Source of the DNA: Octopus sinensis
Taxonomy: Eukaryota
Direction of reading: 5' to 3'
Length of the DNA stretch: 64,000 bases
NCBI RefSeq assembly: GCF_006345805.1
Contig: NC_043008.1
Coordinates: 4,216,001 to 4,280,000 of the forward strand
Below are positions 2,440-24,700 of the stretch, piece after piece. The notes beneath the pieces were generated by a model. The model ran no database searches, was not told where the DNA came from, and saw nothing but the letters and a program-made list of their open reading frames with translations. Numbering within the stretch: the first letter of the stretch is position 1; each line of letters opens with the position of its first letter. The translations under genes and the position numbers were made by a program.

Positions 2440-2861
2440 GAGAGTCAAAGAAACCTAATCATTTATGGTAAGTGACACCATCAAGAGTATTCACCTTTTA
2501 TATTTACATTTCTGAATTTCGTTCACAGCCTTCTAACGAACATAAGGTTTCCTTCAAACATCACAAACCAACTGCTACTCACAGCATGTAAACTTGTAAA
2601 TTTTACAATTTAGAATTTAATTATTAAAACTTCTTAACGTAAAGTGAAATCTATCATGATATGCATCAAAAGGAGTTATCAGAAGGTTTCAGGGAGGTTC
2701 TTAAAATGCCTGATAGCACATTACAGTCGGGATTATATAACATATCTAAGAAACACATTTACGCAGAATCTTTAGAGTATCAGACAGCCTGACAGTCGGA
2801 AGAAGGTAACTGAGTCAAAACTTCAAAGTCACTATCAGCAATTTCTGCTTAAAAATATGAA

Positions 2862-2866
<5 letters not shown>
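2440..2866 (+). mobile_element. Highly decayed Penelope-like 3' fragment (GIY-YIG remnant + hammerhead remnant)
   Basis: NEHKVSFKHHK at 2535-2567 resembles the R-Y-x-x-H-x-x-S-F segment of PLE GIY-YIG domains. It is followed by a hammerhead-like motif and an ATTTCTGCTTAAAAAT end similar to 5341-5364, then (TA)n. Confidence 0.45.
2789..2838 (+). ncRNA. Decayed minimal hammerhead ribozyme motif
   Basis: CTGACAGT-[CGGAAGA]-AGGTAACTGAGTC-[AAAA]-CTTCAAAG-[TC]-ACTATCAG. Stem I is 7/8 paired; the core has U4>G and G12>A changes. Confidence 0.5.
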
Positions 2867-2944
<78 letters not shown>

Positions 2945-2997
2945 CATATATATATACACACACACACATATATATATATGAAATAAAATGCTCTGAT

Positions 2998-3160
2998 GAT
3001 GGTGTCATATAAAAACCACCCGGTGCACTCTGTAAGTGGTTGGCATTAGGAAGAGCATCCAAGCCCGACCAGACTACAGAACCTGGTGCAGCCCCTGACC
3101 ATGCCATTTCCTTTCAAGCTGTCCAACTCATACCAGCATGGAAAGCAGATGTTAGATGTT
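2998..3160 (+). mobile_element. RTE LINE 3' UTR fragment
   Basis: GTGGTTGGCATTAGGAAGAGCATCC...CCAGCATGGAAAGCAGATGTTAGATG is the reverse complement of the (CAT)n-ended family at 15228 and 34503. Confidence 0.75.
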
Positions 3161-3340
3161 ATTGAGGCCACATTTTACAGTCACATATATCTTTGTTGCT
3201 CTTCTTTCACAAACCTTTCATGCAACCCTTCATTTATCTTCAATTATATTCTTACTATATATATATGTATGTATGTATTATGTATGTATATATTTGTGTG
3301 TGTGTGTATATAAATGTGTGTATATATATATATATATTTA

Positions 3341-3398
<58 letters not shown>

Positions 3399-3419
3399 CA
3401 ATAGAGTGCTTAAACTCAG

Positions 3420-4520
3420 GCTAGTCATGCAAAATAGTATAGCTACCAAATGAAAAGAAGGACCACTCTTATGATATTCTTCTGCAGGCTACCTCAAAGA
3501 CAAGTGGCAGTGATCTCATCTTGTGGCTGGAGATTTTGGTATGTCAGAATGGGCATGTTGGACAGCAACCTGGTATCTTCCATGGTGTACATGGGGACCA
3601 TGGAATTGGTTGCTGAAACAAAGAGAAAAATAGGCTGCTGGAGTTCTGTGAAGCAAATAATCTATTGATCTGCAACTCCAACTTCAGGAAACCAGCCAGC
3701 CACCTGATAACCAATCAATCAGGCGACTCTGCTAGCCAAATTAACTTCATTCTCACCAGACAGCGGGATGCATGGTTGCTCTTAAATACAAAGACCCTCC
3801 CTGGTGAAGAACGTACTCCCCAGCATTGACTAGTTATAAGTGAGTTTAGACTCGAGGCCAGAAGGATACCAATCTGGAAAAGAAGGATTTGGCAGCTTAA
3901 GAACCTTTCACATGGTCAGAGATTTAGGGGCATCCTCATTGAGAAATTTGATGAGAGGGACTTGTAGCATAGAAGACAACCAGGAGTTCCTGTGAGACAG
4001 CTTTCTGTAGCTGGTGCAAAATCCCTTCCAGCCCTAGGGTAACATGGTGGTGGTGGTGGAACAATACTGTAGACAGGGCCATTAGAACAAAGAAACAGAC
4101 CTGGAAGAGTTGAGTAGCAGGGAACTGTATCAGATAGCCAGAAGGGAAGCTAGGAGACAGATGTACATAGCCAGGGGAGAAGCAGAAAAGAAGAAGTTTG
4201 CCAATGTCCAGTGACATGAGGACCAACGAACTGAAGTATTTCGGATTGCTTGACAGAGGGTGAAAGAAAATTGTGACGTTAGAGAAGAGGAATGTGTCTG
4301 CATAGATGAGGGCACACTTGCATTTAATGATTCTGCAAAGAAAGACGCTTGGAGATGCTATTATGAAAGACTGCTGAATGTGGAGAATGAATGGGAGGAG
4401 GAGAGCCTGCCCAATGTTGACCCAGTTGAGGGACCAGCTACCCAAATCGACAGCACCCTTGGAGATAAAGCAATTAAGGATATGAAGATAGGGAAAGCCC
4501 CTGGCCCATCAGAATCACTG
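3420..4520 (+). pseudogene. RTE-clade LINE fragment: APE endonuclease C-terminal part and EN-RT linker, frameshifted
   Basis: Translated pieces include ICNSNFRK, INFILTR, KTLPGEERTPQH, WRCYYERLLNVENEW and AIKDMKIGKAPGPS (the GKAPGxD-type motif just before RT). Confidence 0.85.
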
Positions 4521-4813
4521 ATGCTTCTTAGGTCCAACTTTTCTTTCAAGGTACTTACACTCTGTTGAGTATGCACACTGACATTACACATCTATCGGAG
4601 CATATTAGCTTCATTCCTTGCGCGCTGACTGTTTCACTGCCATGTAGCATGGCTGTTCGTACACATGTGTCATACAGTCTACCTTTTACTCTGAGCGAGA
4701 GGCCCTTTCTCACCAGCAGAGGTAAGAGCTCTCTGAACTTTGCCCAGGCTATTCTTATTCTAGCAGCTACACTTTCAGCACACCCTCCCCAGCTACTGAC
4801 CTGGTCACGTAAA
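4518..4813 (-). pseudogene. RTE-clade LINE fragment, post-RT C-terminal region, opposite orientation to the adjacent fragment
   Basis: Minus strand gives ARIRIAWAKFRELLPLLVRKGLSLRVKGRLYDTCVRTAMLHGSET...MCNVSVHTQQSVSTLKEKLDLRSI. Confidence 0.85.
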
Positions 4814-4877
4814 ACATAAATCTGACCTCAAATATCTTACGTACTCGTATATATATATATATATGTATATGTTTGTG

Positions 4878-4904
<27 letters not shown>

Positions 4905-4908
<4 letters not shown>

Positions 4909-5221
4909 AAGGAAATGAAGAAAATGCTGACAAATAATTGAAGTAATTTAAGTAATTTAATTAGGTGAAAGTTCTTTTTACCGGTTGCGCATTTGTTATG
5001 CTTATCAAAATATAAAAGAGAGATTAGAGTTCCTTTCTTATAGAATTTTTCCTCTTATCTGGAAAAGATAAGAGGAAAAATTCTATAAGAAAGGAACTCT
5101 AATCTCTCTTTTATATTTTGATAAGCATAACAAATGCGCAACCGGTAAAAAGAACTTTCACCTAATTAAATTACTTAAATTACTTCAATTATTTGTCAGC
5201 ATTTTCTTCATTTCCTTTTTT
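4905..5221. repeat. Perfect 156-bp inverted repeat with 5-nt loop, made of a Penelope-like 3' end
   Basis: 4905-5060 is the exact reverse complement of 5066-5221; loop GGAAA at 5061-5065. The arm end (AATTATTTGTCAGCATTTTCT) resembles the Penelope 3' end near 22795-22815 on the minus strand. Confidence 0.95.
5116..5149 (+). ncRNA. Variant minimal hammerhead motif (U3-A8 core, A13>C); mirror copy at 4977-5010 on minus
   Basis: TT-[TTGATAA]-GCAT-AACAA-ATGC-[GCAA]-CCGG-[TA]-AA: 4-bp stem II and palindromic stem III (ACCGGT). Stem I is weak. Confidence 0.55.
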
Positions 5222-5285
5222 ATATATCACCACTCGTGTTCGACATCTCCTTTTTTTAAATATATATATATATATATATATATAT

Positions 5286-5339
5286 AACAAAAACTGTCTG
5301 ATGAACGGCAACGAGAAACTCAGAGTAACAGATTTTGTT
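5286..5339 (+). ncRNA. Minimal type I hammerhead ribozyme with canonical core
   Basis: AACAAAA-A-CTGT-[CTGATGA]-A-CG-GCAA-CG-A-[GAAA]-CTC-A-GAG-[TA]-ACAG-A-TTTTGTT. Stem I is 4+7 bp, stem II has a GNRA loop, stem III is quasi-palindromic, and the predicted GUA cleavage site is at 5327. Confidence 0.8.
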
Positions 5340-5459
5340 GAATTTTCTGCTGCTTAAAATAAAGTATATATATATATATATATACGTATGTGTGTGTGTA
5401 TATATATATGTATGTGTGTGTGTGCATATATATATATAATATAAATAAATAAAATATAT

Positions 5460-5860
5460 ACTCTTTTACTTGTTTCAGTCATTTGACTGCAGCCATGCTG
5501 GAGCACTGCCTTTAGTCGAGCAAGTCGACCCCGGTACTTATTCTTTGTAAGCCCAGTACTTATTCTATCGGTCTCTTTTGCTGAACCGCTAAGTGACGGG
5601 AACATAAACACACCAGCATCGGTGGTCCAGCAATGCTAGGGGGACAAACACAGAACACAAACACACACACACATACATATATATATACATATATACGACA
5701 GGCTTCTTTCAGTTTCCGTCTACCAAATCCACTCACAAGGCATTGGTCGGCCCGGGGTTATAGCAGAAGACACTTGCCCAAGATGCCACGCAGTGGGACT
5801 GAACCCGGAACCATGTGGTTGGTTACCAAGCTACTTACCACACAGCCACTCCTGCGCCTA
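5460..5860 (-). mobile_element. tRNA-derived SINE family A, well-preserved full-length copy
   Basis: Minus strand: GGCGCAGGAGTGGCTGTGTGGTAAG (A box), GGTTCAGTCCC (B-box-like), CTTGGGCAAGTGTCTT (CORE-like), then TGACTGAAACAAGTAAAAGAG tail. Embedded in (TA)n. Confidence 0.9.
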
Positions 5861-6393
5861 TATATATGCATATATACATATATGTACATACTTACATCTA
5901 CATGTATATATACATGCATATATATGCATATATTTTATTTATTTATATTATTATATGACTGAATGCACGCGTTATTTCTCTTCTCCAAGTTTTTATTTAT
6001 ATATATATATATATATAACCTCAAGGCAGTGCTCCAGTATGGCGACAGTCAAATGACTGAATCAAGTAAAAGAATATGTATGTATGTGGTGTGTGTTTAC
6101 ATAGATATAGTTTAATGTACACAGTATATAGGTATAAGCTACTAATAGTTTCACACATCCTGCATTGCCTTTAGAACTAAAAAAAGAGTGTCTGCTTAAA
6201 TGTATATCTGTGTGTATGTATAAGCATATATCTATATAATTGTATATATTTACATACATGGGTTTCATATTTTTAATTATACACTCTCACATATTATTGT
6301 TAGAGTTGTTAAGTGACAAATAACGACAATGATTTATTGAAGCCAGGACTCAATAATGATGGTAAACTGAAATTTATTAGACATACAAATTCC

Positions 6394-6436
6394 GAGTTGA
6401 CTTCAGTTTTCACCTCTTGAGGTTTCTTCAAACCTC
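6394..6436 (-). ncRNA. Decayed minimal hammerhead-like motif
   Basis: Minus strand: GAGGT-[TTGAAGA]-A-ACCTC-AA-GAGGT-[GAAA]-ACTGAAG-[TC]-AACTC. Strong stem II, stem I 4/5 paired. Confidence 0.45.
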
Positions 6437-7158
6437 TTGAATAAGCCCTCTCTTATTTTTGCTTTTCATGCTCTATCTGTCTGTCTATCAGTTTGTATGC
6501 CTATACAACTGTGCGTTTTTATCTAAAATCACATATATATATTCTGTCATCTTGCATGTGGAGATTTTAATCATGTCACTGGAGGATATGTGACTATCAC
6601 TTCCATTTTATGAAAATATGTCCTCTGATATAATTCCCTTTAGCATATATGAAATTGTAAATTTAGTTTTGTGTGTGTCTAAATCATTCTTTTACCGTTT
6701 CTTTCCACTTCTGAAATATCACACACTAATGGCCTGGACCTTCAGAATCTCATATTTCAAGCAATTTTCTCAATACATATTGTCAAAAATCAATTTCATG
6801 AAGAATTCTAGAGAATTCTAAGAATTAACAAATACATTGAATTCCATGTAATAACATTGGAGAAGAATTTAGGAATGTGTAATACGATTCTTATAGTAAA
6901 ACTAAAATTTATAATGAGTGAGTGCCCTCGCGATTTATTGTAATCCATCAAAAATATTAGAAAAACTCATCTCTAAACATTCTGAGTTTCAGTTCAGATA
7001 TGCTCTTATTTAAAAAAAAGATGAAGAGATATTTCCAGCTGGGTTTCTTTTGCTTATAAGACTGCTTGGTCTGGGCAGACTCGGGGTTAAACTACAACAA
7101 AAAAACATCAACTACAGCAATGATGTAACTTTTACTTGATTTCTCAATGTTTTAATAA

Positions 7159-9595
7159 CACTGGTCAACAAAATTCAAACTTTTTCATGTCCCATGAACT
7201 AAAGAAAGGGAATTTTATAGTACTTTTAATACAGATTTCGAATCTGATTTTAGAATTTTTCTATCTGGCACGGTTTTAATGTGACAGAGTAATTAAATTA
7301 TACGATAAATGTACTATATTAATGCAGAACTAAGACTGACAATTATGATTGCTCAACAGAATTAATGAAAAATTCTCTCCTACAAACAAAAGTAGTTGAA
7401 CTTAATAGCATTTTATCTGCAGAATTCAAGTGTGTTTTCAAATTTTTTTTCTACAAGTCATAGTGTTTCTGTGAAAGCATGTGTAAATTGTTAAACAATT
7501 GTATTTCATGAATTCAAAAACCAGGCGGATATTACAAGGAAACTTACCTTTAAAACATAGAGCGTATGATTGTCAATTCTATTTAGCTTCTGGAATGTCC
7601 CTTTTTAGTGACCCACAATAATCAGCCAACATAGAAGAGCTCCTCTTTCCTTGGTACCAGGTCTTCATGTTCAGAATGTCCTGGTGAAACCTTTCACCAT
7701 GTTTGTTACTGACATCCCCAAAATTTGCTTGGAAAAAGTCCAAGTGAGAGTTCAAGATGTGGACTTTTAGGTTCATATTGCTTTCCAAGACCTTGTGTGA
7801 TGTCAATAGCTCTTTCACAACGTCAGAATAGGTCTCTGCTCTGTCATTTCCCCAAAACGCTCAGTAAACTTTCTTAAGTGACAGCCATGCAGCTTTTTTA
7901 ACATCATTGGGCTCTTCATCAAACTTTTGGGCTCTCATCAGCTCCCTAATCTGTGGCCCAACAAAAATACTTTCCTTGATTTTTATGTTACTTACTCTTG
8001 GAAATTCAGTTTTCAAATACACAAATCCTTTGTCAGTTCTCTCCATACCTTTGACGAAATTCTTCACCAACCCTAGCTTAATATGCAAAGGAGGTAGATA
8101 AATTTTCTCAGAATCACTAAGGGGAGGATTGAAGATATTCTTCTGTCCATAAGTCAGAGATCATTCCAGCCACACATTCTTTTCATAATGATTTTTCTTA
8201 TCCTTAGTGTCCCACTCTCAGAGAAAGCAACCAAACTTGGTGTAACCCAGCTGCATTCCAAGTACAAGTACCACAACCTTTGGGTTACCATAAATATTCC
8301 ACTTTTGTTCTTCCTATTAACTTTTTGCAACAGAAACTTCATAATCTCATATGTGTCCTTCATGTTAGCTGCATGGGCCAGAAGAACAGAAAGAAACTAA
8401 TTTCCATTCTGGAGTAAAACTGCTTTCAGGCTTACTTTTGAGGAGTCAATAAACAAACGCCACTCATTCGTGCCATACTTGTGGTTAAGTTTGTCCATAA
8501 CAGATTACACTTCATTACAAAACACCATCCTCAAGTGAGAAAAAATTTGCATAATCATAATGCCGAGAACGATAAAAACTTTGTTCTCTTTCTGGAGAGG
8601 ATTCCAGCCCTTTAACCTGGAACCAAGAAGTTCAGCTTGCTTTTTCGACAAGTTTAAATCCCGTTCAACATCGTTCAGATCTCCCTGACTCAACAAATGT
8701 GGTTCACTTGAAGAACAGTCAAGCTCAAAGTCCATGGCTTCTGTTTCTTTCTCACTGTTACTGTCATTTGTTTTGGAGGGTCAGGTACAGGTAAGGGTTG
8801 ACTGTGAACTACTGATCTCATAGCAGACTGTAAATTAGGATATTTTGCAGTCTGCTTGGATTTTGATGTTATACCTGTATATTCGTCAGGCAGAAGTAGC
8901 AATCTAAAGTGTGATCTTTGGGCTCTCTCCAAATCATAGGGATGCCAAAAGGCATATGGTGTAAGCCTTTGGCCCATGCAGTGAGAAGCCTGACACATGT
9001 TACACAACATGCACATGAGGGGCCCAGCTTTTATCCTGGTCACCCACTTTGCAGTCAAAATAATGCTTATAGCAATTTTTAATCAATGACGGGAAATGCT
9101 GTCTTTGTGATTTGAATGTTAAGTCACTGCAAATATAGCAAAAGTTGTTTGCGATGTTTATACAGTTTCTTGGCATTTATACAGTTTATACAGTTTGTTT
9201 ATACAATTTCTTGGCATATTCCATTCAAGGTGAATGGAATATGTGAACTTAGTACGCAACCGCACGCCTCCACTTCAAGCACAGTACTGACAAAGCATCG
9301 GTGATTCATTGACTCAGTGTTGTTAAGCTTCAGTGACTCATTGACTCTGATAGCTAGATTAATGATTTCATTAAGTTAATTCTATTCTTAAACATTTGAA
9401 TTAGGAGTATTTCTTAAACCGTTCACATTTCAACAGCTTAACTGAAATTTAGCCCATGTAACAGGAACTGAGAGGGATACCGCAGAAAAGAGAAACTGTA
9501 GGGGATAAAGAAAACTTGACATTTTTGAATTCTACATGCATAAACATATGATGCAGGTATTCTGTTTCTTGGGACAAATTCTTTGTTGATCAATG
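7159..9595 (-). mobile_element. Full-length decayed DNA transposon, Chapaev3-type (CMC group)
   Basis: Left TIR CACTGGTCAACAAA (7159-7172); right TIR TTTGTTGATCAATG (9582-9595, 2 mismatches); TAA on both flanks (7156-7158, 9596-9598). Contains transposase remnants. Confidence 0.85.
7579..9217 (-). pseudogene. Chapaev3-type transposase, frameshifted
   Basis: N-terminal MPRNCINIANNFCYICS...VGDQDKSWAPH; LNLSKKQAELLGSRLKGWN; PPLHIKLGLVKNFVKGM; HILNSHLDFF...HGERFHQDI...MLADYC. Spread over several frames. Confidence 0.85.
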
Positions 9596-9949
9596 TAATA
9601 GAAGCTAGTCTTCTTTAAATCACATTTTAAAAATAGGTTATTCGTAATTTCCACCACTTGGATCAATAACCTGGTTATAAAATCAAAACCTGTACTGAAC
9701 CACCCTTCTCTTAAAATGCACAGGTTTATCACTGATAAAATGATACTTGATCCGCCCAAATCAGAACTGTCCTTGGGTTAAACAACAGCAAAAACTTATG
9801 GAATTTGTTATTCAATTTGTTATATGGTAACTTCATCTTCTAAAGATATCACGCATAAATGCCAAGAATTCAACATTAAGAAAAATAAGCATATTTTAAA
9901 TGTCTTATGAAACAAAACTGATTTCTCAGAATATAAGACATTTCCATTG

Positions 9950-10180
9950 AGTTGTTTGTTGTGGTTTAGCCCCGGATCAGCACTCGGTCAACCCTGACCA
10001 AGCAAATGCATGATCAAAAGAATCTTCATCACAACCATATTATTCAAAAATGGTTTGTCTCAGCTTGCAATATCCAGTTGTCCTTCTTTTTTTTCTTTTT
10101 AATGATACTGGAGTGTAAATTGAGAGATTTGGCTGCTGTTTCTAGCGATATGAATAACTACACTAATATTCTGTAGTTGA
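9950..10180 (-). mobile_element. Old SINE-like repeat, family D ((AAC)n-tailed); representative copy
   Basis: Recurrent motifs TTTAGCCCC..TCAG, TGATCAAA, GAGATTTGGCTGCTGTTTCTAGC. Related copies, in both orientations, near 7040, 9700, 14330, 27500, 29110, 30770, 31470, 39470, 47300, 49530, 49890, 50980, 54600 and 55120. Confidence 0.7.
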
Positions 10181-10438
10181 AATCAATCATTTATTTTTTT
10201 CTGTTTCTGGCTGCATCAGAGTGATTTGAGTGCCTCTGCCCTTACTACAAGGCTTCTGAGATTTTGGTGAGGAAAGAGTGGAATATACCACACCTCATGG
10301 GTTACCATCAAAACTATCTATCTGCTAGCCAGAAAGTGAACCTGTTTTGCAATTACATGAAAATATCTCAAGATACCAACTCAGGTGATAGCATGTCGAT
10401 ATCAGCTCAGTGGAATTGTCCTAAATTATCATTATCAT

Positions 10439-10797
10439 AGGCACAGGTGTGGTTATAGGGGTTAAGAAGCTTGTTTTGCAACCACCTGGTTCTGAGGCCC
10501 AGCACCACACATCACCTTGAGCAAGGGTTTTCTGTTATATCCCCTGGTTGACCAATACCTTATGAGTGAATTTGATTGATGGAAACTATGTAGAAGCCCA
10601 TTATATATTTGTGTGTGTTCCTCCTTCTACCACTTGTGTTGGTTTGTTTATGTTTCTGTAACTTAGCAGTTTGGCAAAAGAGACTGATGGCATAAGCACC
10701 AACCTTGGAAAAGAAAGATAAGTACCAAGATTGATTTATTTGACTGAATCCTTCAAGACTGTGCCCCAGCATGGCCACAGTTCTATGACTGTATAAG
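10439..10797 (+). mobile_element. SINE family A, diverged copy
   Basis: GGCACAGGTGTGGTT...CCTTGAGCAAG...GTGCCCCAGCATGGCCACAG...ATGACTG, colinear with the reverse complement of 5460-5860. Confidence 0.8.
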
Positions 10798-10829
10798 ATG
10801 ATGGGCTGACTATTGATATCAATGATGAG

Positions 10830-11750
10830 AGTCCATTATGTAAAGCCATGGTGCCCAGTGTCCGAAGTGGACTGCTGCTCTCCTCCCACACGCTTCTGTT
10901 ATGAGCCGCTGTGGGTAGCAATGTTTATTCTCTTCATTTTGTATTTGACCACATCCTTGTTTCTTGTTTCTCAGTCAATATTTGCCTTCATGCACAAGGC
11001 TCAGTAGTTAGTGTCGTACTCACAATCATGAGGTAGTAAGTTTGAATCCCAGACCGGGCTGTGTGTTGTGTTCTTGAGCAAGACACTTTATTTCATGTTC
11101 CTCCAGTTCACTCATCTGTAGAAATGAGTTGCAATGTGACTGATGCCAAGCTGTATTGACCCCTTTACCTTTCCCTTGGATAACTTCAATGGCATAGAGA
11201 GGGGAGGCTGGTATGCATGGGCGACTGCTAGTGTTCCATAAACAACCTTGCCTGGAATTGTGCCTCAGAGGGGAACTTTCTAGGTGCAATCCCAAGGTCA
11301 TTCATGACTGAAGGGGGTCTTGATCCCTTTTTGTGCTTAGCCAACAGTGAATAGGGTACTTGTCTTGATAGATAAGTTTTCTTCATTATCTGAACAAGCC
11401 TAAGCCACAGCAAGGTCGTCTACACCCAGGAAGATGGTTTTCTCTAAGATACTGGTATTCCTGATCTTGTCTTTCAAAGCAATGCCTTGATGCTAATCTA
11501 ACTGCTGTTGCTTCTTTCATCAAGAGACAACATCTCTGAGTAATGCAAATATAAAGACAACTTGTTTGGGGGAGTAAGTAATAGCAAATGTACGTGTCTT
11601 TTGAATGTAAATATTTTGGATTGAGATTACTGGGAGTCTTTGTTATAGACCAGCAAGCATGGAGGAGAAGATTTGTAAACTGTTGCCAGTGGTGGGGTGT
11701 GACTCGAAGGAGACGTTTCTTTTGTTTTGGTCCCTGCCTTGGGGAATTTT
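10830..11750 (-). pseudogene. Old RTE-type LINE C-terminal fragment interrupted by a SINE
   Basis: Minus strand gives GIALKDKIRNTSILEKT, LLWLRLVQIMKKTYLSRQVPYSLL and, beyond the SINE, KDVVKYKMK..AAHNRSVW. These match degenerate RTE C-terminal motifs. Confidence 0.55.
10995..11322 (+). mobile_element. tRNA-derived SINE family C (CORE-like central segment)
   Basis: GGCTCAGTAGTTAG (A box), GTTTGAATCCC (B box), GTGTTCTTGAGCAAGACACTTTA...CACTCATCTGTAGAAATGAG. Related copies at 37740, 38305 and 39795. Confidence 0.8.
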
Positions 11751-11756
11751 TGTTGA

Positions 11757-12037
11757 ACAACTCAACCCCAGCACTTATGTTATTTTTTAAAGCCTGGTGT
11801 TTATTATCTCAATCTCTTTCATTGAACCACTAAGTCACAGGGATGTAAACATACTAACACTGGTTGTCAAGTAGTCTTGGGGAACAGACACAAAGACACA
11901 CGCTCATCAAATCCACTCATAAGGCTTTAGTCAGCCTGAAGTTATAGTAGAAGCTACTTGCCCAATGTGCCACACGGTGAGACTGAAACCAGAACCATGT
12001 GTTTGGGAAGTAACCTTCATACCAAACAACCAAAGAG
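11757..12037 (-). mobile_element. SINE family A, 3'-truncated copy
   Basis: Shares ATCCACTCATAAGGCTTT...CTTGCCCAA...AGAACCATGTG with 5460-5860. Confidence 0.8.
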
Positions 12038-12968: not shown

Positions 12969-13111
12969 CATCATCATCATCATCTTCATCATTTAGCGTC
13001 CGTTTTCCATGCTAGCATGGGTTGGACGGTTCTACTGGGGTCTGTGAAGCCAGAAGGCTTCATCAGGCCCAGTCAAATCTGGCAGTGTTTCTACGGCTGG
13101 ATGCCCTTCCT
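12969..13111 (-). mobile_element. RTE LINE 3' terminus with (GAT)n tail
   Basis: Plus strand reads (CAT)n-TTAGCGTCCGTTTTCCATGCTAGCATGGGTTGGACGG...GGCTGGATGCCCTTCCTA. Confidence 0.85.
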
Positions 13112-15912: not shown

Positions 15913-16642
15913 ACAGCTGGATGCCCTTCCTAACGCCAACCACTCTATGAGTGTAGTGAGTGCTTATTATGTGCCACCAGCACAGGGCCCAGAGGAAGCT
16001 GGCAAACAGCCACTATCAGTTGGTGCTTTTTACGTGTCACTGACATGGTTGTCAGTCAGGCGGCGCTGGCATTGGCCACGTTTGGATGGTGCTTTTTCAT
16101 GCCACCGGCACGGGTATCACAACTACAATTTCCATTTGATTTTTATTTTGATGTTGATGTAATTGACTCAATAGGTCTCCTCAAGCATAGCGGGTCACCC
16201 TACAATGCAAAGTTAGCACAGCAGGCCATCCTGTGAGCCATGAACTCACTTCATTTGTCAGGTCTTTGCAGTCACGGCATATCTCCAGAGGTCTCGGTCT
16301 TTCGGCATAGCCTTTGTGAGGCCCAACATTCGAAGGTCATGCTTGACCACCTCATCCCATGTCTTTTTGGGACTACCTCTACTCTGGATTCCTTCAACTG
16401 TTTGGGAGTGGCACTTCTTCACACATCTCTCTTCATCCATCCATAGTACATGACCATACCAGTGCAAACGTCTCTTCTTGCACACCACATCCGATGCTTC
16501 TTATGTCCAGCATTTCTCTCAGGGTGCTTGCACTCTACCATCTGTGCACATTGATATTACACATCCAGCAGATCATGCTAGCTTCATTTCTTTCGAGACT
16601 ACGCATGTCCTCCACAGTAACAGCCCATGTTTCACTGCCATG
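15909..16642 (-). mobile_element. Second RTE LINE 3' fragment in tandem
   Basis: ORF 16258-16488 (RRLHWYGHVLWMDEERCVKKC...RGSPKKTWDEVVKHDL) plus a UTR that lacks the tail. Confidence 0.9.
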
Positions 16643-16699
16643 AACCACTTGAAGAACTTTTAGACCACATCGTCTGGTGTGACTTTTCCTTTTTATTTA

Positions 16700-17095
16700 A
16701 AATTTTAAGTTAGGATTTGGTTGCTATTTTTAGCAGGTTGAATGACCATGTTGTGACATCTTTGTTGATGCATGTATTGCTTAGCCCCAGATCAGCCATA
16801 ACTGAGCAGTTTTTGATTAAAGGGGTTGCAGCTCTGACTACACCATTTTAATTCCAGCACAGTTTATCACAGAGTAATATCATCCAATGTGTCCTTTTGG
16901 TTTAAAGATAATAATGTGCAGTTTGAGATCGATTTAGTTGCCATTTTTAATAGTTTGACCAAGTGCAGATAAACTTCAATATATTTTAGACTATATTATC
17001 CAATGTTTTCTTACTTTTTTGAAACATTTGAATTGATGAATATTTGGCTGCTGTTTCTAGCAAGTTGAGCAACCACATAACAGCTTCCTCTTCTG
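16700..17095 (-). mobile_element. Clustered degenerate family D copies
   Basis: The motif ATTTGG(T/C)TGCT(A/G)TTT(T/C)TAGCA..TTGA..(G/A)ACCA recurs about three times (16715, 16930, 17040). Confidence 0.6.
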
Positions 17096-17651
17096 TTCAT
17101 TTCTTTAATTTGAGAAAGTTTCCAAAGACAGCCTAATTTCAAACCATTATCTATTTTGTATTCTGTAAGTATTACGATCATTCTCTATTTCTCCCAGCTT
17201 ACTTCTAAACTATTTTTCTTTATTTTTTCCAATCAATTATACACACCAATATATTTTGTGCTTTTTTTGAAATTGGCTTCTAAGATGTTCTCGTATCATT
17301 GCAAATCATAGAGAAATCTGAATGCCATAACAATGGCTTTTCTAATGAAACAAAGAAATTTTTGCTTTCGTGTTTTCATTTGAAGAGTTAAATTATATGG
17401 ACTAACAAAAATAATATAAACAAAAAAGGGCCAGAGTGGGTGGTTCAAAAAATTAAGTCCCCAGCTGTTGAGGTAGACATAAATGTGTTTGAATTGAAAA
17501 GATATCCAGTGATTCTGGCCAGTTTGGTGTACCAGCATTTCGTTAAACACAATCTACCGTTTTGGTGAAACACACAAGCAACAACCATACTTGTACAACT
17601 TTGTAATAAAAGTTAGTAGTGAGAGCTAGGGACAATTCCTTGTTTTTCAAA

Positions 17652-19498
17652 TTCTTCTTCTTCTTCTTCTCCTTCTTCTCCTTCTTCTTCTCCTTCTTCT
17701 TCTCCTTCTCTTCTTCTCCTCTTCTTTTTCTTCTTCTCCTTCTTCTCCTTCTTCTTCTCCTTCTTCTTTCTTCTTCTTTCTTCTTCTTCTCTTTTCTTCT
17801 TCTTCTTCTCTTCTTCTTCTCCTTCTTCTTTTTCTTCTTTTCATTCTTCTTCTTCGTCTCCTTCTTTTTCTTCTTCTTCTCTTCTTCTTTTTCTTCTTCT
17901 TCTTCTTCTTCTTTCTTCTTCTTCCTTCTTCTCCTTCTTCTTCTTCCTTCTTCTTCCTTCTTCTCCTTCTTTCTTCTTCTTCTTCTTCTCTTCTTCTTCT
18001 CTTCTTCTCTTTTCTTCTTCTTCTTCTTCTTTTTCTTCTTCTCTCTTCTTCTTCTTCTTCTCCTTCTTCTTCTTCTTTCTTCTCTCCTTCTTCTTTCTTC
18101 TCCTTCTTCTTCTTTTTCTTCTTCTTCTCTCTTCTTCTTCTTCTTTTCTCCTTCTTCTTCTTTTTCTTCTTCTTCTTCTTCTCTCTTCTTCTTCTCTTCT
18201 TCTCTTTTCTTCTTCTTTCTTCTTTCCTCTTCTCTTCTTCTCTTCTTCTTCTTCTCTCTTCTCTTCTTCTTCTTCTCCTTCTCTTTTCTCCTTCTCCTTC
18301 TTCTTCTTTCCTTCTCCTTCTTCTTCTTCTTTCTCTTCTCCTTCTTTCTCCTTCTTCTCCTTCTTCTCCTTCTTCTTCTTCTTCTTTCCTCTTCTTCTCC
18401 TTCTTTTTCTTCTTTTCCTTCTTCTTCTTCTCCTCCTTCTTTTTCTTCTTCTCCTTTTCTTCTCCTTCTTCTTCTCCTTCTTCTTATCCTTCTTCTTCCT
18501 TCTTCTTCTCCTTCTTCTCCTTCTTCTTCTCCTTCTTCTCCTTCTTCTTCTCCTTCTTTTTCTTCTTCTCCTTCTTTTTCTTCTTCTTCTCCTTCTTCTT
18601 CTTCTTCTTCTTCTTCTCCTTCTTCTTCTTCTCTCCTTCTCTTCTTCTTCTCTCCTTCTTCTTCTTTCTTCTCTTCTTCTCCTCTTCTTCTCTTCTTCTC
18701 TCCTTCTCTTCTTCTTCTTCTTCTTCTCCTTTTCTTCTCTTCTTCTTCTTTTTCTTCTTCTTCTTCTTCTTCTCTTCTCCTTCTTCTTCTTCTTCTTCTC
18801 CTTCTTCTCCTTCTTTCTTCTCTTCTTCTTCTTCTTCTCCTTCTTTCTTCTTCTCTTCTTCTTCTCTTCTCTTCTTCTTCTTCTTCTCCTTTTCTTCTTC
18901 TTCTTCTTCTTCTTCTCCTTCTTCTCCTTCTTCTTTTCTCCTTCTCTTCTTCTCCTTCTCCTTCTTCTTTCTCTTCTCTCTTCTCCTTCTTCTCCTTCTT
19001 CTCCTTCTTCTCCTTCTTCTTCTTCTTCTTCTCCTTCTTCTTCTTCTTCTTCTTCTTCTTTCCTCTTCTTCTCCTCCTTCTTCTTTTTCTTCTCTTCTTC
19101 TCTTCTTCTCCTTCTCTTCTTCTTCTCCTTCTTCTCCTTCTTCTTTCTTCTTCTTCTCCTTCTTCTTCTTCTTCTTCTCCTTCTTCTTCTTGTCCTCCTT
19201 CTTCTTCTCCTTCTTCTCTCTTCTTCTTCTTCTCTTCTTCTCTTCTCCTTCTTCTCCTTCTTCTTCTTCTTCTTCTTCTCCTTTCTCCTTCTTCTTCTTC
19301 TTCTTCTCCTTCTCCTTCTTCTTCTTCTCCTTCTCCTTCTTCTTCTTCTCCTTCTTCTTCTTCTTCTTCTCCTTCTTCTTCTTCTTCTTCTTCTCTTTCC
19401 TTCTTCTTCTTCTTCTTTTTCTTCTTCTTCTCCTTCTTCTTCTCCTCCTTCTTCTTCTTCTTCTCCTTCTCCTTCTTCTTCTTCTTCTTCTTCTTCTC
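17652..19498. repeat. ~1.85 kb degenerate (CTT)n/(CTC)n polypyrimidine tract
   Basis: The plus strand is almost entirely C/T; I see only four purines. Confidence 0.98.
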
Positions 19499-20989
19499 AG
19501 ATATGCTAATAACAGCCAGCCAAGTGAATCCTTCAAAATTTCTTCTCTCTTTCATCCCAGCTAGATGCAAAGTAGTTTTTAAATTGGTTTGTGAGAAATT
19601 CTTCAAGTATTGGGATGTATGAAATTGAACAGAAATTTCAACGCCATGACAATGCGCTTTTTAATAAAACGAAAGTGTTGTTATATTTTCTTTCTTCATC
19701 ATATTTCGATCTTTAGACACCTTTATCAAATAATACAGTGGAACAAAAAAACCTGACAGCAGATGGGTAGAAATCTCAATACATCACAATCAGTTTGAAT
19801 TCGTTCAGCTCTACCTTGACAGCCGGCAGTTTTAATCTTTTAGTGTTCTATATTTTTTTGCTTTCCACAGAGTTATATGAAAAAGGTTTCCAAGATTGAA
19901 ATATTATGAGTGAATAGAAAAAACAATAAAAAGTTTGTTTTATTAAAAATCGTGAAGACATTCAAATTTCTGTTCAATATTGTATACCATTTTCTAGGAA
20001 AAATCTACTTTTGTTTGATATGTTTTTGTAATGACCATCAAATAGAATATCTATCCATCTCTCTCTCTATGTCTCTCTGTCTGTTTGTCTTCTGCCTGTA
20101 CAAATATAGATAAGTCTATCTACCAACAGATAGAAAGATATTTTTTTTCATTTGTTTATGTTTCCATTTACTTCCATATCTCTGTCTATATCTCTTTATT
20201 CCTTTCTTTCCTTCTCTCTCTCTCTCTCTCTCTTTCTCTTCTTATTTACTCACCTGTCTATCCATTTATGTATACCAGCACCAAGACCCACCCATTCCTA
20301 TCTCTTATCCTTAACTCAATCATATGATGTCTCATGATATACCATTGACAAGAGATTACAGCAATGAATTTACACAACTTAAATAGATCATGGGATCAAA
20401 CCTTGCCAAATACCTTCAATTGTAATCTTTCTTATTCATTAGTTTTCTCCCAGATATAATTGATTTTTCTTGATATCTTCTGTTGCTGTAAATGCAATAC
20501 TCTGATACTTTGCAGTATTAATATCCACATCTTGATTTTCTACTTATTAATATAAAAAAAAGTTTTAATCAAGGCTTAACAAACTTGTGTATATTTAATG
20601 ACTTATGCTTAGAAAAAAGTCAATGTACTCACACATACTCACCTCAGCCCAGTTCTCTTTCCTTCCTCTCTCATTCTTCTGTTCACCATGTCAGTAATCC
20701 TGCCATGAGTGGACAGAAACAACATAAAGAAGACTATTTTGAACTGCTGAGGACAAGGCAACATCTCTAGTGCTGGTGCTTCTCTGAAATGCACCCATTA
20801 CACTCTATCAAGTGGATTGTGTTAATTAGGGGCATTCAGTGATAGAAACTACACCAAAAAGGAAATACTGGAGTAAGATATGATTCTGTGACCCATCCAG
20901 GAAAGCAGTAACTCCAGTTAACCATTTCAGACAATGATTACCCATATAGCCCATGGCAGCATGGAAAGAAGTTATAAAATGGTTCTTCT

Positions 20990-21625
20990 TCCACCCCACG
21001 ATCATCCTCACCATTTTATCATTCACTTTTCCATGCTTGCATGGGTTGGACATAATTTATTGTGTTTGATGATTCTGTGGTGGGATGCCTTTCCTGTCAG
21101 CAACTCTCACCTGTTTAGAAATAAGATGATATTTCCCAACAACCAAACATCTTTAAAAAAAAAAACTGAAAATGAATGACACCAGTTGCATAATAGTGAC
21201 ATTCACTTAAAACAATTGCATGATGTCAAAGCATGAAAACAGTAACACACACACACTTTTACATACATATGCATATACACTCAAGTGAATATCAGTCGCC
21301 ATGATAGATCGTTAGCCGCTACACAATTTTTTTTCTCTCCTCGTTTTTTCTGTGTCCCTTTCTGTAGAAGAGCGTAGGCTCAAAACGTAAAATACTTTTT
21401 CTATTCCTGAGCGTTATACTTAAACATCTGTTTGTTTTGTACAACACCTGTCTTCGTCTTTTGTTTTTTTTCGTAAACTCTCCCTACACTCATATATACA
21501 TATATGATGAGCTTCTTTCCGTTTCTATCTACCAAATCCACTTGTGAAGTTTTGATCAACCTGGGCCTATTGTAGAAGATACTAACCCAAGGTGTGAGAC
21601 TGAGCCTGAATCAATGTGATTGATT
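20990..21625 (-). mobile_element. Family A head joined to an RTE-like 3' tail, interrupted by a hammerhead-bearing insert
   Basis: RTE-type tail at 21000-21130 (TTTCCATGCTTGCATGGGTTGGAC..GGATGCCTTTCCTG); family A head at 21503-21625. Confidence 0.6.
21285..21490 (+). mobile_element. Short non-autonomous Penelope-type terminal element with decayed hammerhead (21358-21393)
   Basis: TTT-[CTGTAGA]-A-GAGC-GTAG-GCTC-[AAAA]-CG-[TA]-AAA. Layout parallels 24495-24700 on minus. Confidence 0.6.
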
Positions 21626-22148
21626 ACAATATATATTCATACAAATATAAACACACACATACACACACACATACGCACACACACACACACTTTACAAAAG
21701 TAATATATTTAAAGTGTCTTTACGGTGGACGTGTGTGTTTCATTAGCTCCATTTACTCTACCATGATGGAATTTTTTTAGTCCTAACACATGATCTCAGG
21801 TCAATCACTTGCTAGACTAGGGAAACTCCAGAAATATACTTACATATATATATACATAAATGAGCGGGTGACTTCATAACACGATTGAGAAATCTCTGAA
21901 AAAGTAACTTAAAAATTCAATATGGGGACATATTTGAATATTTCGTGGAATTGTTTTTCTAGATAAGAATGAGTACTAAAAAGAAAAGAAAAGAAAAGAA
22001 GTAAGTATTGGTTTGGAAATGGAAAACAATTAGATGCCAAGAAAATGCCTGTCTGCCGTGAAATTATGAATTATGATTTACAGACTGGCAGAGAAATGAA
22101 ACATTTCCAAATACAACTGAATATGTATATATATACACACACACATAT

Positions 22149-22181
<33 letters not shown>

Positions 22182-22429
22182 CATATACACTGTGTGCATG
22201 AGTGTATATGCAATTGTGTGTGTGCGTGTGCATTTAAATATAAATGATTTATTCAAAGATGAGTTGGGTCACTACTGGAATTTTCTATTTCCACTATATC
22301 GAGTAAATCACCCCCCCCCACACACACACACACATTATCTGTAGCTAAGTATTGATCAGTAGAAGTACTCAATACAGATATAGTGTGCAATGGTTTATTT
22401 GGGCCTGCTGAGTGACTTGTTACTCTTGA

Positions 22430-22533
22430 ATTACCAAAGCATGTATCCAGTTTTGCAGTGAACAACACCTGACCTAACGCTGACTTTATCTGAGGAACCA
22501 GCTACACGGATGGAAGAACACACATATATATAT
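22430..22533 (+). repeat. 104-bp perfect direct repeat, copy 1 (copy 2 at 24368-24471)
   Basis: ATTACCAAAGCATGTATCCAG...GAAGAACACACATATATATAT is identical at an offset of 1938 bp. Confidence 0.95.
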
Positions 22534-22576
22534 ACACATACACAAACTCTCACACACAAACATACAAACACACATG

Positions 22577-22616
<40 letters not shown>

Positions 22617-22722
22617 GGCTATAGCAAAAGACACTTGCCCAAGGTGCCATGCAGTGGGGACTGAACCCAGAACCATGTGGTTGGAAAGCAAGCTTTTCAT
22701 CACACAGCCACACCTGCACCTA
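22617..22722 (-). mobile_element. SINE family A head fragment
   Basis: Minus strand: GGTGCAGGTGTGGCTGTGTGATG...GGGTTCAGTCCCCACTGC...CCTTGGGCAAGTGTC. Confidence 0.85.
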
Positions 22723-22744
22723 TATACATACATACATATACATA

Positions 22745-22775
<31 letters not shown>

Positions 22776-22828
22776 GAAAAAACAAGTAAAAAATAGAAAA
22801 TGCTAAAATAATTTTATAGTGAACATTT

Positions 22829-22866
22829 CAGTACCGGTTTCGGTCATTTTGAGACCTTTTCAACTG
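22829..22866 (-). ncRNA. Minimal hammerhead ribozyme with U3-A8 variant core
   Basis: Minus strand: CAG-[TTGAAAA]-GGTC-TCAAAAT-GACC-[GAAA]-CCGG-[TA]-CTG. Stems I and II pair, stem III is palindromic (ACCGGT), and the motif lies ~50 nt from the PLE 3' end. Confidence 0.75.
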
Positions 22867-23218
22867 TAACGATTAAATAATTAAATTTAGAAAAATTAGA
22901 AGAAAAGTTTTTTTAAAAGAATATTTCTATAGTAGTGTTCAGATTTAAGTGGCATTCTGCCTTTCTCTGACTCCCTTGTTTGCACTTGTGTGTTCGAGGT
23001 AGTTGTGAGCTCTTGGTAGGGTAGTAGAGAGAAGGCTGGTGAGGAAAGGGGGGTGGGAGAATCTGGGAGTGCCCTGATGGTCGTATTTTGAATGGTCAGT
23101 GGCGGCTGGCAGTCTCAGTTCAATTCAGGAGAATATTTATATTGACAGGCTTCTTTATAGAATTAGCGTAGGTGTTATACTAAAAAACATTAGTGACAAA
23201 CTTAAGGGGTAGGGGGTG

Positions 23219-23427
23219 GAGAAGAAGAAGAAGAAGAAGAAGAAGAAGAAGGAGAAGGAGAAGATGACGATGATGGTGATGGTGGTGATGATTATGACGA
23301 CGATGATGATGATAACGATGATGATGAAGAAGAAGAAGAAGAAGAAGAAGGAGGAGAAGGAGAAGATGGTGGTGATGATGGTGGCGATGATGATGATGCC
23401 GATGATGATGATGATAACGATGATGAT

Positions 23428-23460
<33 letters not shown>

Positions 23461-23470
23461 AAAACAGAGA
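23219..23470. repeat. Compound (GAA)n/(GAT)n microsatellite inside the PLE 3' region, with a two-block internal duplication
   Basis: Direct reading: GAA block, GAT block, GAA block, GAT block, GAA block. Confidence 0.9.
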
Positions 23471-23587
23471 AGGGAGAATATGAATGTAAATATAGCTATG
23501 AAGGGGCTGATTAGTAATGGATTCTATTGAGTGTAGTATTTGTGTGTGTATATATATTTTTTTCTTTTATTCTAAAGTTGAGGTATA

Positions 23588-24367
23588 TTAATTGTTTGTC
23601 GTAGACCCGTTAAGAAGTGGCTTGTATTTTGTAATAAAGAGATTTTCTTTACTTATTCGTTGTCTCGAGGTTGTATCGTCCCTAAATTGGTAGAGGGGGA
23701 AAATTCTGAAGTTTGGTGTTTTTTTGTTGGCGCAAGTATCTATGTGTTGGCTAAAAGCTATTTTTCTGTTTTGGGGAATTTTTATCTGGGATCTGTGCAG
23801 GGCCATTCGTTTACGCAAACCATTTTTTGTTTGGCCTATGTACTGCTCTTGACACCCGGAGCAGGTTAGTGAGTATATTAGGTTCTCCGAAGCACATGTG
23901 AAGTTGCTTTTCACTGTGAAACGTTGTCCCTGTTTGAAGGAGAACTCAGAACCCTCGATTAGATAGTCGCATATCCCGCAATTGGGTCTTCCACATTTTT
24001 TTACTGTCGGCTTCTGTGTTGAAGAGTGAATTCGGGCTTGTGTAAGGAGACTTTTCATGGATCTAGGCTGTCTTTTGCTTTTTATGATCGTGTGTGTTTG
24101 GAGGATTGTGTTCATTCTGTGGTCTTTTTTTAGGAGGGGTATGTTGTGGAGGATGGTGTCGAAGGCTTCGTTATTGAGAGGGTTGTGTGTGGAGATGTAT
24201 GGTAAGGCTTTTGGTTGTAAGTTTTTCTTTGATTTGGGATGTCTCAGTTCCTTGATGTTAAGTTGAAGGGCACGTTGAATGCATTTGTCAATAAGTGAAG
24301 GTGGATAGTTCCTGGTGATTAGGGTATCTTTTAGTTCTTGTAGTCGTGTGTCTCTGGTGTTATATAT
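23588..24367 (-). CDS. Penelope-like polyprotein C-terminal part: RT thumb end, Cys-rich linker, GIY-YIG endonuclease (5'-truncated, uninterrupted frame)
   Basis: LITRNYPPSLID, LPYISTHNP, KKCGRPNCGIC, FTCASENLIYSLTCSGCQEQYIGQTKNGLRKRMALH, KENLFITKYKPLLN. The start given in the ORF track lies in duplicated flank DNA. Confidence 0.9.
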   Translation of the reverse strand: MYNTRDTRLQELKDTLITRNYPPSLIDKCIQRALQLNIKELRHPKSKKNLQPKALPYISTHNPLNNEAFDTILHNIPLLKKDHRMNTILQTHTIIKSKRQPRSMKSLLTQARIHSSTQKPTVKKCGRPNCGICDYLIEGSEFSFKQGQRFTVKSNFTCASENLIYSLTCSGCQEQYIGQTKNGLRKRMALHRSQIKIPQNRKIAFSQHIDTCANKKTPNFRIFPLYQFRDDTTSRQRISKENLFITKYKPLLNGSTTNN

Positions 24368-24471
24368 ATTACCAAAGCATGTATCCAGTTTTGCAGTGAA
24401 CAACACCTGACCTAACGCTGACTTTATCTGAGGAACCAGCTACACGGATGGAAGAACACACATATATATAT
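24368..24471 (+). repeat. 104-bp perfect direct repeat, copy 2, fused to the PLE 5' truncation point
   Basis: Identical to 22430-22533. Confidence 0.95.
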
Positions 24472-24494
24472 GTGAAGGTGGATATATATATATA

Positions 24495-24700
24495 GTTAAT
24501 CCAAACAAGAAAGCACAAAAAAACACAACAACGCGAGGATGTGGAACAAATATAGTATTATTGGACAACAGGAAAGAAGGAAAGAAGGAGGGTTTAACGT
24601 TTCGAGTGGAGCTCTTCGTTGGAAACATAGGAGAAGGAAAGATCCAGAGAGGGGAAGACAGAGGGAAAAAAATCGCCAACGGTACACACGAGGTCACATC
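24495..24700 (-). mobile_element. Short non-autonomous Penelope-type terminal element with variant hammerhead (24592-24626)
   Basis: Minus strand: GTTT-[CCAACGA]-A-GAG-CTCCA-CTC-[GAAA]-CG-[TT]-AAAC. The 3' end runs into (TA)n. Confidence 0.65.

What the first reader, a model, noticed from the sequence alone, without database searches (positions are those of the whole stretch)
2789..24700. A dispersed, diversified set of minimal hammerhead ribozymes on short Penelope-type ends next to (TA)n
Seen: eight hammerhead-like motifs at seven loci: 2789-2838(+), 4977-5010(-)/5116-5149(+), 5286-5339(+), 6394-6436(-), 21358-21393(+), 22829-22866(-), 24592-24626(-). All have the order stem I / 7-nt core / stem II / GAAA-like / tiny self-complementary stem III / UH / stem I', but stem sequences differ, so structure rather than sequence is conserved. 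Four loci add one A between the core and stem II. Most lie 25-100 nt from an end that runs into (TA)n or a related microsatellite. Established: Penelope-like elements carry minimal type I hammerheads with palindromic stem III, thought to cleave as dimers. Inference: this genome hosts several ORF-less 80-320 bp ribozyme-bearing families mobilised by PLE RT/GIY-YIG proteins like the one at 23588-24367. Canonical hammerhead searches would miss most of them. I cannot tell whether these specific families have been described.
Basis: partly seen in the sequence, partly recalled or inferred. Interest (0 to 1): 0.75.

Follow-up and report, generated by a model that had tools for sequence, protein, structure and literature searches.

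The report
Penelope end-repeat hammerheads, not separate families
Most of these motifs are the already described tiny self-cutting RNA motifs (hammerheads) in the end repeats of Penelope-type jumping genes, and the short copies are pieces of those end repeats that stop at a preferred point, likely the element's own transcription start; cutting itself is untested.

Summary
All eight motifs are at the stated coordinates. Six of the seven loci belong to repeat families (7 to over 3,000 search candidates); 6394 is single-copy and unverified. The 4977/5116 pair is one motif in a fold-back. Four families (22829, 5116, 5286, 21358) were traced to the terminal repeats (pLTRs) of Penelope-like elements encoding reverse transcriptase and endonuclease; 24592 runs into a longer UTR, but no ORF was reached. 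Minimal type I hammerheads in pLTRs, the extra A, the U3-A8 core, the palindromic stem III and solo or inverted copies were all described in 2014. The short copies form no separate lineage: they match the pLTRs of coding copies. They are not random truncations either: 5' ends pile up within 6-18 bases in four families, on initiator-like motifs, with a TATA box at -30 in one. They are likely cDNA copies of the transcript's 5' leader, primed at the pLTR/tail. Four families carry a fixed non-standard core or junction base, and three window copies have lost G5 or G12. This scan noted the start-site idea before in other genomes. New members of a known kind.

The parts
22776..24365 (-). Family A: 5'-truncated young Penelope-like element (thumb, CxxC linker, GIY-YIG ORF end 24364-23588; simple-repeat 3' UTR; pLTR)
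   Evidence: Pfam GIY-YIG E 8.7e-5; 41 matches 100% identical over the last 185 bp; two-pLTR copy L140 with RVT_1 + GIY-YIG
22829..22866 (-). Family A hammerhead, U3-A8 core, 3-bp stem I, 4-bp stem II, CCGG stem III; equals the family majority
   Evidence: core and GAAA the same in 38 of 38 rows
4899..5060 (-). Family B pLTR, inverted arm (no tail), motif at 5010-4977
   Evidence: 162-nt arms 99% complementary
5066..5227 (+). Family B pLTR, forward arm, starting at the family's 5' hot spot; motif 5116-5149 with U3-A8 core, fixed C13 and a 2-bp stem I
   Evidence: 100% identical to the 5' pLTR of two-pLTR copy L141 (RVT_1 + GIY-YIG); GCAA in 33 of 33 rows
5228..5263 (+). PLE 'tail' of family B (start of the element body)
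   Evidence: same sequence follows the 5' pLTR and leads into the ORF in L141
5285..5366 (+). Family C solo pLTR piece, Hydra-type PLE; motif 5294-5331 with A on both sides of a 2-bp GCAA-capped stem II
   Evidence: 100% identical to both pLTRs of L142; RWK, DKT and CxCx5C motifs in L142/L145
21292..21484 (+). Family E solo pLTR piece; motif 21358-21393; family core has fixed U6; this copy has also lost G12
   Evidence: 25 of 30 loci chosen by the GIY-YIG C-terminus carry this end (or its sister subfamily) 0.5-1.4 kb downstream; 5' pLTR, tail and RT in L301
24495..24700 (-). Family D short end; motif 24626-24592; family core has C4; this copy has also lost G5; coding parent not found
2789..2865 (+). 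Family G: decayed end of an old family; relatives point to a standard core with the extra A
   Evidence: 6 relatives at 81-83%
6394..6436 (-). Locus F: hammerhead-like string, single copy, unverified
24369..24470 (+). Copy of host flank 22432-22533 at the 5' junction of element A, followed by an 11-bp piece of the element

Best explanation
The motifs are minimal type I hammerheads in the pseudo-LTRs of several protein-coding Penelope-like retrotransposon families that insert into (TA)n, and the short ORF-less copies are pLTR pieces of those same elements, likely made when reverse transcription primed at the pLTR/tail runs off the 5' end of the transcript. Shown here: links to RT/endonuclease ORFs for four families, two-pLTR copies, tails, (TA)n at 3' ends, identity of short copies with coding pLTRs, and sharp 5'-end hot spots. 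From published work on other PLEs: the promoter and start site lie in the pLTR (PMC2377424, PMC8557442); the endonuclease nicks AT-rich DNA, the RT starts internally at the pLTR-ORF junction, uncut RNA is the main template and the ribozyme is protein-assisted and not needed for insertion (PMC11167929, in vitro, Poseidon clade). Inferred: (1) a transcript starting in the 5' pLTR gives a cDNA that ends at the start site, so a unit of fixed length is inserted (about 163, 84, 190 and 205 bp in families B, C, E, D); (2) at that end the cDNA is joined to (TA)n or folds back, giving the 330-bp palindrome; (3) such solos lack the ORF-start binding region and would be dead ends; (4) stem III would form only between two motifs, so solo copies would not cut as monomers.
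For: ORF links: A 22 of 30 loci and L140; B 4 of 25 loci (probably one duplicated locus) and L141; C L142, L145, L149; E 25 of 30 loci and L301. No short lineage in E: 29 short, 12 UTR-length and 20 ORF-linked ends share one majority sequence apart from one 7-member ORF-linked sister subfamily; no bootstrap tree makes the short copies one clade (0% of 200). Hot spots (distance from the 3' end): E 21 of 29 at 182-199 and D 21 of 29 at 196-213 in samples chosen by the 3' 140 nt only; D 18 of 35 at 197-213 with 3 longer in copies chosen by the last 48 nt or met by chance; E 8 of 12 chance-met short copies at 180-195; B 18 of 25 arms (13 insertions, 12 fold-backs) at 160-166; C 12 of 25 at 81-86. 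Junctions differ by a few bases, as for independent events. A BBCABW initiator-like site (recalled consensus) lies in the B, C and E clusters and TCA in D; B has TATAAG at exactly -30. Across 11 families 94 of 99 paired cells are Watson-Crick with changed letters; the two stem I pairs not required by the descriptor hold in 10 of 11 each. Stem III self-duplex -8.3 (A, B), -7.4 (C), -1.7 (D, E) kcal/mol; monomer fold with stem III +0.7 to +8.2 in A, B, C.
Against: No RNA evidence for a start site or for cutting. The initiator motif is short (about one per 60 bp) and was looked for after the fact; D, E and A have no TATA, and C has a weak one in 7 of 13 long copies only. Family A shows no hot spot among 30 copies (206 to over 1,700), though its 185-bp query could not see one at about 165. 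B and C samples exclude copies shorter than the query, and all samples are the top 40 hits to the window copy, not random draws. The 5' pLTRs of two-pLTR copies do not start at the hot spots (964, 1,368, 625, 211, 88). The short label in E is somewhat clustered on the tree (11 changes against 18 shuffled), which selection by similarity can explain. The A and B pLTRs do not align at the motif by sequence alone. No ORF or tail was found for D. The covariation count is partly circular.
Confidence: 0.6

Rival explanations
1. Discrete non-autonomous SINE-like or retrozyme-like families: a short pLTR copy is transcribed on its own and is mobilised in trans by a PLE protein.
For: Fixed unit lengths; D and E are very abundant and mostly short; no ORF found for D; pLTRs can act in cis to mobilise other sequence (PMC3846280, passages); retrozymes derive from pLTRs (10.64898/2026.07.22.740005).
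Against: Short B and C copies are 100% identical to coding pLTRs; no short clade in E; the B palindromes have differing centres, so they are not copies of one unit; no head-to-tail unit arrays apart from one three-copy E locus spaced by (TA)n; the published RT-binding region lies in the ORF start, which solos lack.
Confidence: 0.17
2. Ordinary 5' truncation of long cDNAs with a sequence-dependent stop: the RT stalls, or the cDNA anneals to the target, at preferred sites before the low-complexity 3' UTR.
For: Long CA/CT/GAA-rich UTRs lie upstream in A, C, D and E; many junctions show TA or TG microhomology; family A looks like plain truncation.
Against: The peaks lie 60-100 nt before the simple-repeat tracts in D and E; TA and TG dinucleotides are everywhere; B's peak has TATA and initiator spacing and needs no (TA)n microhomology.
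Confidence: 0.18
3. The motifs are chance look-alikes in AT-rich repeat DNA.
For: Post hoc descriptor; AT-rich false hits occur; most family cores depart from the standard; 6394 cannot be verified.
Against: The motif lies within the last 130 nt of four independent RT/endonuclease families, while 1.04 Mb of shuffled loci gave 2 hits at the same score; compensatory changes.
Confidence: 0.05

Closest known systems
[quoted passage not shown]
   Same: Type I order, tiny palindromic stem III, extra nucleotide between 9 and 10.1, U3-A8 variant, many families per genome, mostly solo copies, inverted pairs 100-700 bp apart.
   Different: Family-wide C13 (B), C4 (D), U6 (E) and A on both sides of stem II (C and two other families) are not in the text I read; they may be in its figures and supplements or in Lunse et al. 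2016, which was not available.
PAc, Poseidon element of Anolis (Frangieh et al. 2024, PMC11167929; parts 1-2 of 4 read)
   Same: AT-rich target, two 3' ends with and without tail, hammerhead near the ORF start, uncut RNA copied.
   Different: The text read gives no 5'-end hot spot for genomic copies; families here have CxxC or CxCx5C linkers.
Hydra clade of PLEs (Craig et al. 2021, PMC8557442; sections 6, 10, 11 and passages)
   Same: Family C has RWK, DKT and CxCx5C, a hammerhead and (TA)n insertions.
   Different: Unit is about 3.4 kb, not under 3 kb; no tree was built.
Animal non-LTR retrozymes (PMC7229834, passages; bioRxiv 10.64898/2026.07.22.740005, parts 1-3 of 5)
   Same: Short non-coding units with a type I hammerhead, derived from pLTRs.
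   Different: Defined by tandem units with canonical motifs and circular RNA; here dispersed solos identical to coding pLTRs.
Solo and inverted pLTRs of Adineta vaga Penelope (PMC3846280, passages)
   Same: Solo pLTRs, head-to-head palindromes, pLTRs of about 190-220 bp.
   Different: Explained there by recombination or deletion and by self-priming on an antisense template, not by a start-site stop.

Membership tests
PLE minimal hammerhead (min-HHR) | Type I order with stems I and II | tested here: met
   A, C, D, E majority motifs have 3-4 bp stem I; B only 2 bp; C stem II 2 bp
PLE minimal hammerhead (min-HHR) | Core CUGANGA or UUGANAA, GAAA, UH | tested here: inconclusive
   Met in A (38 of 38), in C (with an extra A before GAAA) and in the G majority apart from CpG decay at G12; one fixed change in B (C13, 33 of 33), D (C4 in all but 4 of the main rows of 78) and E (U6)
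PLE minimal hammerhead (min-HHR) | Palindromic 15.2-16.2 / loop 3 | tested here: met
   CCGG (A, B), CG (D, E), 3+1+3 (C); not met at 6394
PLE minimal hammerhead (min-HHR) | Located in the pLTR of a PLE | tested here: met
   A, B, C, E; not shown for D, G, F
PLE minimal hammerhead (min-HHR) | Self-cleavage as dimer or with protein | not testable with these tools
   No raw RNA reads offered
EN+ Penelope-like element | ORF with RT and C-terminal endonuclease | tested here: met
   A and B by Pfam RVT_1 + GIY-YIG; E by translation and 29-31% identity to A; C by motifs only, no Pfam hit; copies carry frameshifts
EN+ Penelope-like element | pLTRs in partial tandem, optional 30-40 bp tail, inverted 5'-truncated copies | tested here: met
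   L140, L141, L142, L147, L301; tails in A, B, C, E
EN+ Penelope-like element | Insertion bias to (TA)n | tested here: met
   (TA)3 at the 3' end in 30 of 30 A, 25 of 25 B, 23 of 25 C, 26 of 30 D, 23 of 30 E; in A and B part of this run belongs to the element
Hydra clade (family C) | RWK, DKT, CxCx5C linker | tested here: met
Hydra clade (family C) | Phylogenetic placement | not tested
   No reference set was fetched
Neptune/Nematis clades (A, B, E) | CX2-5CxxC linker before GIY-YIG with internal cysteines | tested here: met
   Seen in translations of A and E and B by 68-72% identity to A; which clade was not tested
Non-LTR retrozyme | Head-to-tail tandem units, each with a complete hammerhead | tested here: not met
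   Dispersed solos or fold-backs; one three-copy E locus spaced by (TA)n among the 30 E loci
Non-LTR retrozyme | Circular RNA | not testable with these tools
   contigs only
Independent non-autonomous (SINE-like) family | Own lineage distinct from the coding element | tested here: not met
   B and C 100% identical to coding pLTRs; E no short clade; D inconclusive

The most novel reading that the evidence does not exclude
The thousands of fixed-length solo pLTRs are inserted 'strong-stop' cDNAs that map each family's transcription start site, placing the hammerhead in the 5' leader 5-75 nt after the cap; and several young, successful families spread with non-standard catalytic cores (C13, C4, U6), so PLEs keep the hammerhead fold for a role that does not need fast cutting.
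Probability: 0.4. Interest if true: 0.55.

Novelty: new member of a known kind. Interest (0 to 1): 0.33.

Why it matters
As a catalogue of motifs this repeats a 2014 result in one more animal genome. Two points are useful. First, if the 5' hot spots are start sites, genomic copies give a free map of PLE promoters and support the internal-priming model in vivo for Neptune-type and Hydra-type elements, whose replication steps are largely unknown. Second, natural core variants fixed in recently active families are ready test cases for the open question of what the PLE hammerhead is for. It also warns repeat annotators that such 80-330 bp units look like SINEs or MITEs but are pLTR pieces.

Tried and rejected
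Rfam scan: no hammerhead family among the 150 listed of 227 matches; the top hits are hairpin and microsatellite look-alikes of miRNA models. A first reading that D and E are discrete 200-bp families was dropped for E once 3'-only and 5'-extension queries led to the ORF. Looking for D's coding parent: three longer copies end in CA-rich tracts, and 9 kb upstream of a sister copy gave no tblastn hit; the query meant for D's 5' end was taken from the wrong strand and sampled its 3' end, which I then used as a length-unbiased sample. Cut-site footprints: only three junctions lie within 5 nt of a predicted cut (L301, L264, L276), no pile-up. The inverted pair as dimer partners: rejected, the arms are on opposite strands. 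Sequencing runs: no RNA holder listed, contigs only, uninformative. Plain alignment of A and B pLTRs does not align the motifs. The E core count is invalid (its alignment file had been overwritten); E figures come. Lunse et al. 2016 could not be read (seen only as a citation and summary in PMC6765202). Paper searches for solo pLTR / strong-stop and for A6U / U4C returned nothing; this covers the open library only.
Full report
Setting. The window is G000:C12:4216001-4280000 of a 2.72-Gb animal genome, rich in (TA)n and (CA)n. It looks like an octopod: this rests on my recall of its SINE-like repeats and on an Argonauta protein among the named relatives of the element ORF (P0054); it was not tested further. 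I call the families A (22829), B (4977/5116), C (5286), D (24592), E (21358), F (6394) and G (2789).

Observation. Only A fits the standard core with no deviation. A relaxed descriptor made after seeing the motifs finds A, both B arms and C; it gives 7 window hits against 0.25 in shuffles, but two are AT-rich noise, so this control is weak. Rfam lists no hammerhead among the 150 matches shown of 227. The two B motifs are the arms of one 162-bp inverted repeat. Own-genome searches show A-E to be high-copy (890, 730, 433, 3,329, 3,213 candidates), G old and rare (7) and F single-copy at the motif.

What the families are. A: 41 matches are 100% identical over the last 185 bp, 22 of 30 loci run into the GIY-YIG ORF, and L140 is a copy with two pLTRs 4.4 kb apart around RVT_1 and GIY-YIG pieces. 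B: L141 has the same layout, its endonuclease part about 70% identical to A. C: L142 has two pLTRs 3.4 kb apart around an RT with RWK, DKT and a CxCx5C linker, the Hydra-clade marks of Craig et al. 2021; Pfam gave no hit. E first looked like a 200-bp family. A query on its 5' extension showed a low-complexity UTR ending in a GIY-YIG C-terminus, and 25 of 30 loci chosen by that C-terminus carry the E end or a sister subfamily 0.5-1.4 kb downstream. L301 has an E 5' pLTR, a tail and the RT. D runs 200 to over 900 bp further 5' into CA-rich sequence in a few copies and sister copies, but I reached no ORF and saw no tail among 82 ends. G relatives suggest a standard core with CpG decay at C11.1-G12.

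The ribozyme motifs. Family majorities: A has the U3-A8 core. B has U3-A8 plus C13 in 33 of 33 rows and only a 2-bp stem I. C has a standard core with an A on both sides of a 2-bp stem II, a junction also seen in two unrelated families met by chance. D has C4 (48 of 78 rows CCGACGA, 19 CpG-decayed as in the window, 4 standard). E has U6, as does its sister subfamily. Over 11 families, 94 of 99 paired cells are Watson-Crick with different letters, and the third and fourth stem I pairs, which the descriptor did not require, hold in 10 of 11 each; the total is partly circular. The non-circular argument is position: the motif lies in the last 130 nt of four independent RT/endonuclease families, while 1.04 Mb of shuffled loci gave two hits at that score. 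Monomer folds with stem III closed are unfavourable in A, B and C, and stem III self-duplexes are stable there, as the dimer model expects. By established hammerhead chemistry (G12 general base, PMC6155905 passage; G5 recalled), the window copies of D, E and G are predicted dead. Cervera and de la Pena 2014 already report the extra nucleotide, U3-A8, the palindrome, solo copies, inverted pairs and weak dimer cleavage.

Short copies: neither separate families nor random. Short B and C copies are 100% identical to coding pLTRs. In E, 29 short, 12 UTR-length and 20 ORF-linked ends share one majority sequence and form a star, apart from a 7-member ORF-linked sister subfamily. Yet 5' ends cluster. 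In samples chosen by the 3' 140 nt only, 21 of 29 E copies end at 182-199 and 21 of 29 D copies at 196-213. Among D copies chosen by the last 48 nt or met by chance, 14 are shorter, 18 end at 197-213 and 3 are longer. B has 18 of 25 arms, or 13 insertions, at 160-166, 12 of them fold-backs with differing centres; C has 12 of 25 at 81-86, just before stem I. A shows no peak above 185 bp, the length of its query. The clusters include a CA initiator-like site (B 162, C 86, E 190, D 209), and B has TATAAG at -30. The motif is short and was sought after the fact, so this is weak support.

Mechanism. The PLE promoter and start site lie in the pLTR (PMC2377424 passages; PMC8557442). In vitro, a Poseidon protein nicks AT-rich DNA and starts cDNA inside the RNA at two sites that bound the tail; it needs the first 172 nt of the ORF, copies uncut RNA, and makes shorter products from 5'-shortened templates. 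I infer that a transcript starting in the 5' pLTR yields a cDNA running from the pLTR end or tail to the cap, which is inserted as a solo unit, joined to (TA)n or folded back. Longer copies need tandem or circular templates. Against this, the 5' pLTRs of the two-pLTR copies do not start at the peaks, three families lack a TATA, and no RNA data were available. Only three junctions lie near a predicted cut site, which fits copying of uncut RNA. I put about 0.9 on the pLTR identity and about 0.4-0.5 on the start-site origin of the peaks.

Novelty. The system is known. I found no paper on these particular families: a search for hammerhead + Penelope + octopus gave 5 papers, 4 listed, none on them, and a 2026 octopus repeat annotation counts 31 recently active Penelope-like families and never uses the word ribozyme in its main text. 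Searches for a strong-stop reading of solo pLTRs and for the core variants were empty. Lunse et al. 2016 and the supplements of the 2014 paper, which list many variants, were not seen and may cover the core variants. I formed the start-site reading before consulting the scan's notes; earlier reports on other genomes reached the same idea, which is not independent proof. Verdict: real, ordinary members of a known kind, with one testable mechanistic lead.

Noticed in passing
Its 3' flank is related at 70-79% to old repeats in L253, L080 and L174, all ending in the same short motif.
   Followed up: partly
window 22432-22533 and 24369-24470, 24473-24483: About 100 bp of host flank lying 250-350 bp beyond the 3' end of element A is copied at its 5' junction, followed by an 11-bp piece of the element: a templated, complex junction rather than a plain target-site duplication.
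   Followed up: partly
window 4850-5380 and 24455-24700: Different PLE families share one (TA)n tract (B with C; A with D); also E next to D in L082 and L234.
   Followed up: no
L072, L268, L174 and family C: An A on both sides of stem II (A10.1/A11.1-like junction) recurs in three unrelated hammerhead families.
   Followed up: partly
L039, L077, L277, L222: Further hammerhead-bearing ends of other families; L222 has a GIY-YIG ORF 51% identical to A followed by a decayed motif with CCGG stem III.
   Followed up: no
L301 (minus, about 5350), L264, L276: Three junctions begin within 5 nt of the predicted cut site; L301 is the 5' pLTR of a long E copy. Too few to call a cleavage footprint.
   Followed up: partly
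window 17600-19600: About 2 kb of degenerate (CTT/CTC)n simple repeat giving long spurious ORFs.
   Followed up: no
window 56260-57500: Tandem array with a 31-bp unit.
   Followed up: no
window 3550-4510: Decayed LINE-like coding remnant (endonuclease/RT-like text in translation, from recall; no relevant Pfam hit).
   Followed up: no
tails of A, B, E (window 5228-5263; L140; L301): The tails of three families share a short CTCGTG / CTCACGTG-like word, and a similar word lies near the 5' hot spots of D and E.
   Followed up: no
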